Assembly: GCF_037042905.1 (NCBI RefSeq)
Contig: NC_087254.1
Location: 32,178,001 to 32,242,000 of the forward strand
Direction of reading: 5' to 3'
Origin: Lytechinus pictus
Lineage: Eukaryota
Length of the DNA stretch: 64,000 nucleotides
Shown: positions 18,001 through 21,000 of the stretch, in pieces
How positions within the stretch are numbered: position 1 is the first letter of the stretch
How the letters are laid out: every line of letters begins with the position of its first letter
Position numbers: made by a program

Positions 18001-21000
18001 TTGAATACATGTACTATATTTACTTTTAAAGTATGTATATAATACATAAATGGTATGACTTTAGTAATTTGAAACAAACCTTATATGAACAAAACGTACA
18101 TGTAATAGAAATACTTGCCAATTAGGATAAGATCCCAGACAACTTGATCCCAGATGCTGACCTGTAAATGTACTACATGTGTAAATACTCACTGACCTGT
18201 AAAATGTACTTAATATTCATAATAAAAATACAACATTAAATTTACAACTTCAATTCAGCTGGTATCAAGAGAATAGGTGAATTTTGAATGTAACGCAGAT
18301 CACTATGTAGTCACTCAAATATAACCTTAAATAATTTCTGGTTTATATTCAGTACCAGCAACTTTCAACAAAAGGTACATGGCTATACTGAAACTGGCAT
18401 ACACTATACATGCAAAATAAAGCACGTTCTTGTTTGTCAAGAAATGTTTAAGGATGTACTTGTTTTAATAAAGGTTCAGTATATAGGTAACTGCACACGA
18501 TATGTTACTTTGTTAGTTTTTCTTTAGCTAAAAACATGGTCTTTTCCAGATTTTACCTTAAGCTTACATGCTTCTTTAAAAGGTAGCATAACTATTTCAC
18601 ATGCATACATACATGTGTGTCATCAAGTATTCTATTAATTCATTCCTCTTTCAATTTCCTGTATATAAAGCACCTTGATTTGATCAAGAGAAGGTTATAA
18701 TTTTTTTTGTATTGACAAAAGTTTATTTATTTAGGGAATTTTCACTCAGAACAAAGGATTCATGAAGAGTAATATCTTCTTAACTAACATGACAATGAAT
18801 CCTTCAATCCACTAATGAAGTGAATAAATAGCTGGAATAGCTGTAACATGCTTTTTCCAAAATGGATGACACTGCAAACGGATAATTCACTCTGAACTTA
18901 GGAAAGAGCCATCAATCTGGTTCTTCTATTTTTAAGAAAGACTCTATCGGAGTCTTTGTAATGTAAAAATCCATCTCTCTTTACTTGAATCTTCAGTGTG
19001 ACTCTTAAGCAAACATTCCCTATTCAGTTAATCACCCATCTCTCACAGAGTTGTAATTGAGAGTGCAGTTTCAGAACAATTTGAAACTGTCACTCAGTAC
19101 TTATGCTTCAGCATACCACTTATCTTTCTGGGGTTCTTTAATATGCTCTTCAGCCATTTCCGTATCCTCTGGAGAGCCCAGGATGGAAGGTCCAGGAAAC
19201 AGTTCACACTCTGATCCCTTGGATGCGGAAGATCATGGTTGGACAGGCACCTTGTCAGGATCACTAGGATATCAAAGAACCGTTCTGCCAACATCTGTTC
19301 ATCCCACTCTGTTTCTTCGACACAAGCGATGTACATGATGGCTAGTAGGTGGGCATGAGAGAGCACTTGAAGTTTGGAGTTGTTGACTCTCAGGACTTCC
19401 ATGATGGCCAAACACTTCATCCTGCATCCCCCATCTGAGCCATCAAGCTCATGTAGCATCTCAAGCACAAACTCATTGAAGCACCACATCCAAAGATTAG
19501 TATCAGGGCGAAGATTCAACTCCATACTTTCTACTTCATCATATTCATCATCTTGCATAACACCGGAAGGACGTGGAGAGAATGGAGACGATGACAGGGT
19601 CACAAGTCTGGGACCAAGTTTGGCATAGATTTTAGCTTCTATGGTCACACTTGGTTCTTCTCCGGGGGACATCTTGCAGAATTCGTTGATACTGCTACCC
19701 AGAAGCCTTTGTAGATGGCGAAGCACATATGCAGGGCAGAGATAGTTTCCGACCATAAACTTGTCCCAAGGATCCTGGCCTTTCGGGATGAAGTCCAGAT
19801 TGATCCGTCTTACCAGGAAGTACCCAGGTGCCTTCAGAACAGAATGTCGAGCATCTTCATACTCCCAAGTGTGGGGGTTCATTTCAATAGGAAGCACAAG
19901 TAATTTGGTGGATGCATCATAAGCTTTGACAATGGTAACCTGAGACCTGTCCCCAGCAAAGAAGGCATTCTGGATGGGGAGGTTATTTCCATGTTGTTTC
20001 ACAAACTTCATGAAGAATGTTTTAAATGGCTTCAGCTCTTCTCTTTCAGATTGCTGCCTCTCTTCATTAGGTAGGACATAGCTTGTGTAGTAGCTCTCCA
20101 ACCTTGTTTTGAGAGGTAATCCACTTGCGCTTGGCACATCAGAATTGACGGGTAACATTCGCACATTTGCATGTTCCTGAGCAGCAGCTTCTTCATAATC
20201 ATCAGAATCCACTTCCTCGTAATCTGACCAATCACAGGTTCGGCGACCAGATGCGTATGGTTCTTTCTCTTCTTCTGCTCCATCATCACTACAGCTCTCT
20301 ACCTGAGCAGAGGAAGATGCTGCCATCTGCTGCTGACGTTGACGGTGGTGAGCTTGGGCATTGTATTTTTCCCTCTGCTTTGTTGCTTTGTATGCTTCTG
20401 CTGCAAGGATGGCACTTGCTGAAAGTACACCTAGACCAGCTGCAGCCTTAAGCCCCATTGCCCACCAGGAATCTCTTTCCTGGGCAGAGGACCTCTCTCT
20501 GTTGTTATGTGCCATCGAGACCCGAGCACCTGAACCAAAAACAGAAAAAAAGAAAGATTAATTTTTCAATAATTATTCAAGTCTATGGATTATCTTTATT
20601 TCTCCATCTCTCAAAAGTTGCAGCAAATTATTTTAATGAAGTCATCATGATTTAACTCTTGATGAACATGTAAAAAACCTCTTTTGAAACTAACCATCTT
20701 TTTCAAAGAGGCTCTTTAGGCTGAAAATAATATCATTTGACCACCAGATAAAGAAAAAGCAGACAAACAAAACACTAAAAAGGTAATTAAATCGGACAAG
20801 GATTAACAAAGTTATAACATTTTAAAGGTAACTCCACTCCTGAAAAACGTTGATTTGAATTAACACAGAAAAATCAAAGAAGCACAACACTGAAAATTTC
20901 ATCAAAAAGTTAAAACGGATGTAAAATAAGAGTTACGGTATGACAACTTAAAGTTTTGCTTATTTTTCACAAAACAGTTATGTGCACGACTGAATGATGA

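What the first reader, a model, noticed from the sequence alone, without database searches (positions are those of the whole stretch)
19094..20515. Apparently complete MiD49/MiD51 Drp1 receptor in an echinoderm-like invertebrate genome
Seen: TM anchor plus full Mab-21/cGAS-like fold with blocks matching MiD51, including the equivalent of the Drp1-recruitment loop (VRRINLDFIPKG vs human VRRENPEYFPRG). Known: MiD49/51 are usually described as chordate/vertebrate-restricted Drp1 adaptors and are absent from fly, worm and yeast. Inference: a pre-duplication MIEF1/2 ortholog in a non-chordate deuterostome would push this mitochondrial fission system back to the deuterostome ancestor. The NTase 'SGSLYDDL' segment is replaced by 'AGDRSQVTIV', and there is an acidic insert (QDDEYDEVES), so nucleotide binding may differ.
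Basis: partly seen in the sequence, partly recalled or inferred. Interest (0 to 1): 0.65.

Follow-up and report, generated by a model that had tools for sequence, protein, structure and literature searches.

The report
Sea urchin MiD49/51-like mitochondrial fission adaptor
A sea urchin genome carries an intact gene for a membrane-anchored relative of the vertebrate proteins that bring the mitochondrial division enzyme Drp1 to mitochondria, although this protein family is usually described as limited to vertebrates or chordates.

Summary
Window 19094-20515 (minus strand) is one uninterrupted 473-codon ORF. It encodes an N-terminal hydrophobic anchor, an acidic linker and a Mab-21/cGAS-type fold. 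The best sequence and fold matches are the MiD51 and MiD49 crystal structures.

The Drp1-recruitment loop and its Arg-Asp salt bridge are kept. All NTase catalytic residues and all four MiD51 phosphate-contact residues are lost. So are all four residues of the second Drp1-binding surface, DBS2.

The closest named relative is from the sea urchin Diadema setosum (62% identity), so the genome is echinoid.

An ML tree puts the echinoderm-type clade as sister to vertebrate MIEF1+MIEF2, before their duplication (support 98/90). An AU test does not reject placing it with other MiD51-like proteins of unknown taxa (p 0.12).

NCBI already names echinoderm proteins "MID49-like" and "MID51-like". The gene is therefore a new member of a known kind, not a discovery of the family outside chordates. 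No paper I could search discusses this. Mitochondrial localisation and Drp1 binding remain untested.

The parts
19094..20515 (-). Complete single-exon coding sequence, 473 codons plus stop, of the MiD49/51-like protein (P0001)
   Evidence: An in-frame stop lies 14 codons upstream of the ATG. The N and C termini align end to end with three other urchin proteins of 470-476 aa.
20393..20461 (-). Residues 19-41: Gly/Ala-rich hydrophobic segment, the predicted N-terminal membrane anchor, followed by basic residues (K43, K46, R48, K50)
   Evidence: Hydropathy maximum of the protein, 1.57 over 19 residues. All 9 named vertebrate MIEF rows have an equivalent segment (1.85-2.11), as do many other hits. 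Which membrane it enters was not tested.
20126..20392 (-). Residues 42-130: acidic, low-confidence linker between the anchor and the fold
   Evidence: 19 Asp/Glu against 10 Lys/Arg in 89 residues. pLDDT is below 50 for residues 70-103.
20180..20236 (-). Residues 94-112 (CDWSDYEEVDSDDYEEAAA): acidic motif invariant in all 4 urchin proteins
   Evidence: Alignment; positions. Its function is unknown.
19511..20125 (-). Residues 131-335: N lobe of the Mab-21/NTase-like fold, with no catalytic residues
   Evidence: PF21297 match at residues 169-277. The model has pLDDT mostly above 80. GS and both [DE] positions are absent.
19757..19819 (-). Residues 233-253: counterpart of the MiD51 Drp1-recruitment region. 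The loop LDFIP (240-244) matches PEYFP 238-242, and R237 with D251 matches the R235-D249 salt bridge.
   Evidence: HMMER alignment to the MiD51 chains. R237, G246 and D251 are invariant in 16 of 16 rows of A1. Within 237-258, 9 of 22 residues are invariant across the 7 echinoderm-type rows, against 47 of 343 for the whole domain.
19526..19555 (-). Residues 321-330 (QDDEYDEVES): acidic insert relative to vertebrate MIEF
   Evidence: Alignment. pLDDT is below 50 at 316-321 and 325-327. The starfish-type rows carry an insert of similar length but different sequence.
19097..19510 (-). Residues 336-473: helical C lobe (Mab-21_C)
   Evidence: PF20266 match at residues 364-453. pLDDT is 90-98. The MiD51 phosphate contacts R342, K368 and K372 are N347, E373 and V377 here. 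The DBS2 residues are S425, Q449, K453 and K456.
20530..20560 (-). Pyrimidine-rich tract ending in CAG, 14 nt upstream of the ATG: a possible 3' splice acceptor of a 5'-UTR intron
   Evidence: Read directly from the sequence. This is inference only; no transcript data were available.
18726..18731 (-). The only AATAAA/ATTAAA hexamer in the 600 nt after the stop, 362 nt downstream: a possible polyadenylation signal
   Evidence: Inference only.

Best explanation
The window holds an intact, single-exon sea urchin gene for a member of the MiD49/MiD51 (MIEF) family. The protein is a Mab-21/cGAS-fold pseudoenzyme tethered by an N-terminal membrane anchor through an acidic flexible linker.

Shown here: the architecture, the fold assignment, the loss of all catalytic and nucleotide-contact residues, and the strong conservation of the loop that in MiD51 recruits Drp1.

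Inferred: the protein sits in the mitochondrial outer membrane with the fold facing the cytosol. It uses the beta4-alpha4 loop, held by the R237-D251 salt bridge, to capture Drp1 oligomers. It needs no ADP or GDP cofactor, as MiD49 needs none. In the best tree it descends from the single gene that later duplicated into vertebrate MIEF1 and MIEF2.
For: - The ORF is complete and is the only copy in the window.
- Full-length relatives at 87, 66 and 62% identity have matching ends, which fits a gene kept under selection.
- Pfam gives MID51-like_C plus Mab-21_C.
- The 8 best PDB sequence matches are MiD51 or MiD49.
- The AF2 model has pTM 0.70, with 241 residues at pLDDT 90 or more. Its Foldseek ranks 1-24 are all MiD51 or MiD49 chains (TM by target 0.78-0.83). 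cGAS appears only from rank 25, at 1.8e-12.
- An N-terminal hydrophobic segment is present, as in all 9 named vertebrate MIEF rows.
- R235, D249 and G244 of MiD51 correspond to R237, D251 and G246, which are invariant in 16 of 16 rows.
- The DBS1 residues R234, Y240, F241 and R243 are R, F, I and K here.
- The loop region is the second most invariant 22-residue stretch among the echinoderm-type proteins (9 of 22).
- In the careful ML tree (57 rows, 340 columns) the echinoderm-type clade (100/98) is sister to P0010 plus 12 vertebrate MIEF rows (100/99). The joining branch has 98/90 support, and the named MIEF1 and MIEF2 rows all lie inside the vertebrate clade.
- From passages of Richter 2014 (PMC3926961): the nucleotide-binding-deficient MiD51 mutant still recruits Drp1, while deleting PEYFP or mutating R235 abolishes recruitment. 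Losing the pocket therefore does not argue against receptor function.
Against: - The DBS2 residues of MiD51 (E420, D444, Y448, Y451) are S, Q, K and K here, 0 of 4. They are kept only in the vertebrate rows. Ma 2019 (PMC6355003, passages) reports this surface as more important than the loop in pull-downs.
- The AU test does not reject a tree that joins the echinoderm-type clade to the 25 other non-vertebrate rows (delta lnL 4.99, p 0.123).
- hhalign scores the echinoderm-type profile 394 against that other clade and 388 against the vertebrate clade.
- The urchin branch is long (1.24). The central sheet is shorter than in vertebrates, with an acidic insert.
- The tree rows came from hits to this protein itself. 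No named MB21D2, ITPRIP, MAB21L3/4 or cGAS row was available; only a MAB21L1-like outgroup was verified.
- The AF2 alignment contained vertebrate MIEF rows, so the fold match is not independent of the sequence match.
- No expression, localisation or binding data exist.
Confidence: 0.6

Rival explanations
1. The protein is an anchored MiD-like pseudoenzyme that does not act as a Drp1 receptor. It uses the conserved loop and the urchin-specific acidic linker motif to bind other partners, or works at another membrane.
For: - DBS2 is 0 of 4 conserved.
- The nucleotide pocket is fully lost.
- An acidic linker motif is invariant in the urchins but absent from vertebrate rows.
- Identity to vertebrate MIEF is only 20-25%.
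- The membrane targeted by the anchor was not tested.
Against: - The loop and salt bridge that are essential for Drp1 recruitment in MiD51 are the conserved part.
- P0010, the closest non-vertebrate-type relative of MIEF in the tree, also lacks DBS2. DBS2 may simply be a later vertebrate addition.
Confidence: 0.22
2. The gene is not the ortholog of MIEF1/2. It belongs to a separate, older lineage of anchored MiD51-like Mab-21 proteins, some still with intact active sites, and resembles MiD49/51 through shared ancestry of the whole group and parallel loss of catalysis.
For: - AU p is 0.123 for the alternative grouping.
- The hhalign score to the other clade is as high or higher.
- P0014 and P0021 from that group hit MiD51 structures more strongly (2e-44 and 2e-36) than the urchin protein does.
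- The loop signature also occurs in the 12 rows I labelled invDRR.
Against: - The best ML tree supports the sister relation to MIEF at 98/90. The quick tree of 77 rows gave the same neighbourhood at SH-aLRT 87.
- A deuterostome grouping agrees with the species tree.
Confidence: 0.15
3. The ORF is a non-functional or unexpressed retrocopy.
For: The coding sequence has no intron.
Against: - The frame is open for 473 codons, where about 8e-12 such frames are expected by chance.
- Full-length relatives at 62-87% identity have conserved ends, and the motifs are conserved.
- There is no second copy in the window.
- A splice-acceptor-like tract just upstream of the ATG suggests a spliced 5' UTR.
Confidence: 0.03

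Closest known systems
MiD49 (MIEF2), vertebrate Drp1 receptor
   Same: - N-terminal anchor, disordered linker and Mab-21/NTase pseudoenzyme fold.
- Beta4-alpha4 loop above an Arg-Asp salt bridge.
- No predicted nucleotide cofactor. MiD49 lacks ADP binding according to a passage of PMC6355003.
- PDB chains 5wp9_B and 4woy_A match at 4e-20 and 4e-18, with TM by target 0.79-0.81.
   Different: - Identity is only about 21%.
- The DBS2 residues are not kept.
- The central sheet is shorter, with an acidic insert at 321-330.
- The linker carries an acidic motif specific to urchins.
MiD51 (MIEF1), vertebrate Drp1 receptor with ADP/GDP cofactor
   Same: - Best sequence and structure match of all solved proteins (1.7e-24; 2.9e-22 with TM by target 0.82).
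- VRRINLDFIPKG aligns with VRRENPEYFPRG. Fish MIEF rows read VRRINLEYFPRG, which is even closer.
   Different: - The phosphate contacts H201, R342, K368 and K372 are T203 (A201 in the MAFFT alignment), N347, E373 and V377, 0 of 4.
- S187-G188-S189 is A-G-D.
- C452 is S457, and DBS2 is 0 of 4.
NCBI-annotated echinoderm proteins: 'MID49-like' of Diadema setosum (P0004) and 'MID51-like' of Acanthaster planci (P0005)
   Same: - Same family and architecture, at 62% and 30% identity.
- Same Pfam pair.
- One clade with the window protein at 100/98 support.
   Different: The names are automatic, and none of these proteins has been studied. The starfish-type proteins differ in the GS region and in the insert sequence.
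cGAS-like receptors and MAB21L1
   Same: Same superfamily fold, and the Mab-21_C lobe matches (cGLR1 7e-9, MAB21L1 1e-8).
   Different: - None of the h[QT]GS, [DE]h[DE]h or h[DE]h active-site elements is present. The motif is quoted from PMC9980059; the columns are.
- Those proteins match far more weakly and, as far as I recall, carry no N-terminal anchor.

Membership tests
MiD49/MiD51 (MIEF) family | Mab-21/cGAS-type nucleotidyltransferase fold whose closest relatives are MiD51 and MiD49 | tested here: met
   - PF21297 at 3.8e-18.
- The top 8 PDB sequence hits are MiD51 or MiD49.
- Foldseek ranks 1-24 are MiD51 or MiD49. The model's alignment included MIEF rows.
MiD49/MiD51 (MIEF) family | Single N-terminal transmembrane anchor followed by a disordered linker | tested here: met
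   Hydropathy peak at residues 19-41 (1.57), then an acidic linker at 42-130 with low pLDDT. Named vertebrate rows show the same layout. No dedicated TM predictor was run.
MiD49/MiD51 (MIEF) family | Pseudoenzyme: NTase catalytic acids lost | tested here: met
   No GS, no [DE]h[DE]h and no third acid: AGD, DASTKL and AKLGP occupy those columns.
MiD49/MiD51 (MIEF) family | Drp1-recruitment region: exposed beta4-alpha4 loop over the R235-D249 salt bridge (Richter 2014) | tested here: met
   R237 and D251 are invariant and LDFIP stands at the loop apex. This was tested at sequence level only.
MiD49/MiD51 (MIEF) family | Second Drp1-binding surface DBS2 (E420, D444, Y448, Y451; Ma 2019) | tested here: not met
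   The residues are S425, Q449, K453 and K456. Among the 57 aligned rows the surface is kept only in vertebrate rows. It is therefore a vertebrate feature rather than one of the wider family.
MiD49/MiD51 (MIEF) family | Phylogenetic placement with MIEF1/MIEF2 to the exclusion of other Mab-21 proteins | tested here: inconclusive
   The best ML tree gives a sister relation at 98/90. The AU test does not reject the alternative (p 0.123), and the hhalign scores are equal.
MiD49/MiD51 (MIEF) family | Mitochondrial outer membrane localisation and recruitment of Drp1 | not testable with these tools
MiD51 subtype (ADP/GDP-binding) | Phosphate contacts H201, R342, K368, K372 and the S187-G188-S189 turn | tested here: not met
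   The contacts are T203 (or A201), N347, E373 and V377, and the turn is AGD. In the same alignment, 15 of 16 vertebrate rows keep His at the 201 column and 15 of 16 keep Lys at the 368 column.
Active cGAS-like receptors (cGLR) | h[QT]GS ... [DE]h[DE]h ... h[DE]h active site (PMC9980059 methods passage) | tested here: not met
   0 of 3 elements are present.

The most novel reading that the evidence does not exclude
MiD receptors are the catalytically dead tip of an older animal family of N-terminally anchored MiD51-like Mab-21 proteins.

Some members still carry a complete cGLR-type active site. Among the 10 anchored rows I labelled TMcat, 6 have all three elements. Two others, P0009 and P0017, carry both the full active site and the Drp1-recruitment-type loop.

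On this reading the loop, and perhaps Drp1 docking at mitochondria, arose on an active membrane-bound nucleotide-signalling enzyme before catalysis was lost. The echinoderm protein is the extreme end point, having also lost the nucleotide pocket.
Probability: 0.3. Interest if true: 0.65.

Novelty: new member of a known kind. Interest (0 to 1): 0.4.

Why it matters
Reviews and primary papers call MiD49/51 vertebrate- or chordate-specific (passages in PMC3160255 and PMC3926961). An intact echinoderm member with the recruitment loop conserved shows that this statement does not match sequence databases.

It also offers a transparent, injectable embryo system with a single MiD-type gene. In that system one can ask what the ancestral adaptor did, whether the loop alone suffices for Drp1 capture, and when the ADP pocket and the second binding surface were added.

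The wider set of anchored relatives with intact active sites raises the question of whether a mitochondrial fission adaptor evolved from a membrane-bound innate-immune-type nucleotidyltransferase.

Tried and rejected
Accessions and names of the unnamed relatives stayed unknown.
- Word-indexed homology searches returned few rows: 5, 15 and 6. They gave no names for the non-vertebrate, non-echinoderm clade, whose taxa are therefore unknown.
- The two protein-atlas calls only returned generic Mab-21, MID49, MID51 and ITPRIP clusters and did not discriminate.
- The Kalia 2018 MiD49-Drp1 cryo-EM paper was not held under the id I tried. I used a review's passages instead, so the four cryo-EM interfaces were not mapped residue by residue.
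- One literature search was badly framed and returned only echinoderm developmental papers.
- No complex prediction was run, because no urchin Drp1 sequence was available and a stand-in from another host is of little value.
- Rfam found nothing in the window.
- Pfam found nothing in 6 of 7 other long ORFs.
- A retrocopy or pseudogene reading was considered and rejected (see the rival explanations).
- Genome contigs was not scanned, since it holds only bacteria and archaea. The closed collections were not used.
- Supplements of Zhao 2011 (alignment figure S1) and Culbertson and Levin 2023 (S4 Fig tree with Mid51) could not be seen. They may show whether invertebrate MiD relatives were already plotted.
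Full report
**1. What is in the sequence**

On the minus strand, 20515 down to 19094, there is one open reading frame of 473 codons plus a stop. Read from stop to stop it spans 487 codons. It is by far the longest of the 27 frames of at least 110 aa in the window; the next has 200. From base composition, about 8e-12 frames of this length are expected by chance. A tblastn of the protein against the window finds only this locus; the other matches have E of 1.7 or worse.

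**2. Anatomy**

- **Anchor.** Residues 19-41 are the hydropathy maximum of the protein (1.57 over 19 residues). They are Gly/Ala-rich and followed by basic residues.
- **Linker.** Residues 42-130 are acidic (19 D/E against 10 K/R) and of low model confidence.
- **Fold.** Residues 131-473 fold with high confidence. The model has mean pLDDT 77.6 and pTM 0.70, with 241 residues at 90 or more.
- **Pfam.** MID51-like_C scores 3.8e-18 and Mab-21_C 6.2e-9. The general Mab-21 NTase model is not matched.
- **Solved structures by sequence.** The 8 best of 12 distinct PDB sequences are MiD51 and MiD49 (1.7e-24 to 4.4e-18). cGLR1 (7e-9), MAB21L1 (1e-8) and cGAS (0.2) lie far behind.
- **Solved structures by fold.** Foldseek ranks 1-24 are all MiD51 or MiD49 chains (E 2.9e-22 to 1.3e-17, TM by target 0.78-0.83). 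cGAS starts at rank 25 with 1.8e-12 and TM 0.69. The model was built with an alignment that includes vertebrate MIEF rows, so this does not stand apart from the sequence evidence.
- **Flanks.** A pyrimidine tract ending in CAG lies 14 nt upstream of the ATG, and a single AATAAA-type hexamer lies 362 nt after the stop. These suggest, but do not show, a spliced 5' UTR and a 3' end.

**3. Residue mapping to MiD51**

The HMMER alignment to the mouse MiD51 chains (chain index plus 128 gives the residue number) reproduces the published positions H201, R234/R235, PEYFP 238-242 and D249. I therefore used it for mapping (positions from passages of PMC3926961).

- **Recruitment region.** R235 corresponds to R237, D249 to D251 and PEYFP to LDFIP (240-244).
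  - R237, G246 and D251 are invariant in all 16 rows of a first alignment spanning urchins, starfish-type, vertebrate and other rows.
  - The DBS1 residues of Ma 2019 (R234, Y240, F241, R243) are R, F, I and K.
  - Among the 7 echinoderm-type proteins, which are only about 28% identical between subclades, 9 of the 22 residues 237-258 are invariant. For the whole domain the figure is 47 of 343. Only the 400-421 core helix scores higher, at 10 of 22.
- **Nucleotide pocket.** The turn S187-G188-S189 is A-G-D. H201 is T203 (A201 in the MAFFT alignment), R342 is N347, K368 is E373 and K372 is V377, so 0 of 4 phosphate contacts are kept. The three NTase active-site elements are all absent. Richter 2014 reports that a MiD51 mutant unable to bind nucleotide still recruits Drp1. 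Ma 2019 states that MiD49 lacks ADP binding. This loss therefore makes the protein resemble MiD49 and does not rule out receptor function.
- **Second surface.** The DBS2 residues E420, D444, Y448 and Y451 are S425, Q449, K453 and K456, and C452 is S457. In the 57-row alignment DBS2 is kept only in vertebrate rows. It is also missing in P0010, the sister of the vertebrate clade. This is the main sequence evidence against a fully conserved Drp1-binding mode.

**4. Organism**

The nearest relatives are an unnamed protein at 87%, another at 66%, 'MID49-like [Diadema setosum]' at 62% and 'MID51-like [Acanthaster planci]' at 30%. Named vertebrate MIEF1 and MIEF2 proteins are 23-25% identical. The window protein lies on a record whose longest contig is 37 Mb. 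The genome is therefore an echinoid's. I did not determine the species.

**5. Relatives and tree**

An exhaustive HMMER scan of 1.84 billion representatives gave 93 hits at E up to 1e-3, 28 up to 1e-10 and 3 up to 1e-30, the query itself included. Pfam scans of 59 and then 29 of them showed a gradient. It runs from strong MID51-like_C matches (vertebrate type), through weaker ones, to plain Mab-21 proteins.

**Quick tree.** It used 77 rows: all proteins of at least 290 aa. Eight fused, two-domain, truncated or frameshifted-looking rows were dropped (P0008, P0020, P0042, P0059, P0072, P0076, P0097, P0106). It put the urchin clade with the starfish-type rows and P0006 (SH-aLRT 90), next to the MIEF clade (87).

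**Careful tree.** It used 57 chosen rows and 340 domain columns, rooted on two rows of which one (P0088) was verified as MAB21L1-like (2e-232). Results:
- echinoderm-type clade of 7 rows: 100/98
- P0010 plus 12 vertebrate rows: 100/99
- the two joined: 98/90

The named MIEF1 and MIEF2 rows all fall inside the vertebrate clade, so the split predates that duplication. Of the 12 rows I call vertebrate in this tree, 8 carry a source's name. The other 4 (P0012, P0016, P0024, P0032) are assigned by clade and by very strong PF21297 scores.

**Results against this reading**
- An AU test of the alternative does not reject it. In that alternative the echinoderm-type clade is held together with the 25 other non-vertebrate rows. 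It gave delta lnL 4.99 and p 0.123.
- Profile-profile scores of the echinoderm-type alignment are 387.9 against the vertebrate alignment, 394.2 against the clade I labelled invDRR and 356.8 against the one I labelled TMcat.
- P0014 and P0021 from those clades hit MiD51 structures at 2e-44 and 2e-36, more strongly than the urchin protein itself.

I defined the labels invDRR and TMcat after seeing the alignment columns. The rows were all found with this protein as the query. No named MB21D2, ITPRIP, MAB21L3/4 or cGAS row was at hand. The taxa of all unnamed rows are unknown.

**6. Most likely mechanism**

The protein is most likely a mitochondrial outer-membrane adaptor that presents a catalytically dead Mab-21 fold to the cytosol. 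It would capture Drp1 through the beta4-alpha4 loop, without a nucleotide cofactor.

- **Shown:** architecture, fold family, dead active site and pocket, conserved loop.
- **Inferred from the vertebrate proteins:** the membrane, the partner and the effect on fission.

Review passages describe MiD49 co-assembling with Drp1 into linear polymers through four interfaces that include Drp1 stalk loops (PMC6743466). I could not map those interfaces because the primary paper was not held.

**7. Comparison with what is known, and novelty**

[quoted passage not shown] Richter 2014 writes 'chordate-specific MiD49 and MiD51' (passage). Culbertson and Levin 2023 treat Mid51 as one of several animal paralogs in the cGLR superfamily (passages); their supplementary tree could not be seen.

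Searches of the held library:
- 37 papers hold MiD51, MiD49 and 'invertebrate' (listing of 20). Of these I read passages of four.
- 8 papers hold MiD51 and 'sea urchin', none on this topic by title (listing).
- No occurrence of 'MID51-like' or 'MID49-like' in any of the 27 papers listed out of 30 that held any of the four search terms.

I therefore found nothing in print on echinoderm MiD proteins within that library. NCBI's automatic annotation, however, already names them. I also recall, without a call to support it, seeing 'MID51-like' names on other invertebrate records. The verdict is a new member of a known kind. It is of moderate interest because it contradicts a common textbook-style statement and offers a tractable system.

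**8. The boldest reading not excluded**

Among the anchored MiD51-like rows, 6 of the 10 I labelled TMcat (P0021, P0055, P0048, P0056, P0078, P0026) keep GS, [DE]h[DE]h and the third acid. P0009 and P0017 keep all three and also carry the recruitment-type loop. This fits an origin of MiD adaptors from membrane-anchored active cGLR-type enzymes, with the loop arising before catalysis was lost. The taxa, the membranes and the activities are all untested.

Noticed in passing
window 20180-20236 (-), residues 94-112 of P0001: The acidic stretch CDWSDYEEVDSDDYEEAAA in the otherwise variable linker is identical in all 4 urchin proteins, which are only 62-87% identical overall. It contains YEEV, which fits the aromatic-x-x-aliphatic core of LC3-interacting regions as I recall that motif. 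P0006 has WVDI in a similar acidic context. No function was tested.
   Followed up: partly
proteins P0021, P0048, P0055, P0056, P0078, P0026, P0009, P0017 (hits): These proteins have an N-terminal Gly/Ala-rich hydrophobic segment, and the one of them that was checked, P0021, has MiD51 as its best PDB match (2e-36). They still carry GS, [DE]h[DE]h and the third acid, so they look like membrane-anchored active cGLR-type enzymes. P0009 and P0017 additionally carry the MiD-type recruitment loop. Their taxa are unknown.
   Followed up: partly
proteins P0008, P0035, P0042 (hits): Unusual fusions appear among the relatives. P0008 (871 aa) has two tandem Mab-21-type domains, the first of them MID51-like. 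P0035 has a Mab-21 fold plus a C-terminal ubiquitin domain. P0042 has a CARD plus a Mab-21 fold.
   Followed up: no
window 36530-36889 (+): An open frame matches Pfam Phospholipase B (PF04916, 3.7e-14, profile positions 287-338 of 487). It is probably one exon of a phospholipase B-like gene on the plus strand.
   Followed up: no
window 55252-56545 and 57730-58996 (+); also 899-2151 and 4115-5349: There are two pairs of near-identical repeated segments, each with matching open frames of 116-200 aa. The three frames tested have no Pfam match. They are probably tandemly duplicated or mobile DNA.
   Followed up: partly
window 38613-38743 and flanks 38001-40000: A run of 131 N lies in a segment with unusually strong GC skew (+0.31 over 2 kb) and low-complexity frames rich in G/P. 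I left it as it is.
   Followed up: no
window 20530-20560 (-): A pyrimidine tract followed by CAG lies 14 nt before the start codon. This suggests that the single coding exon is preceded by a 5'-UTR intron.
   Followed up: no
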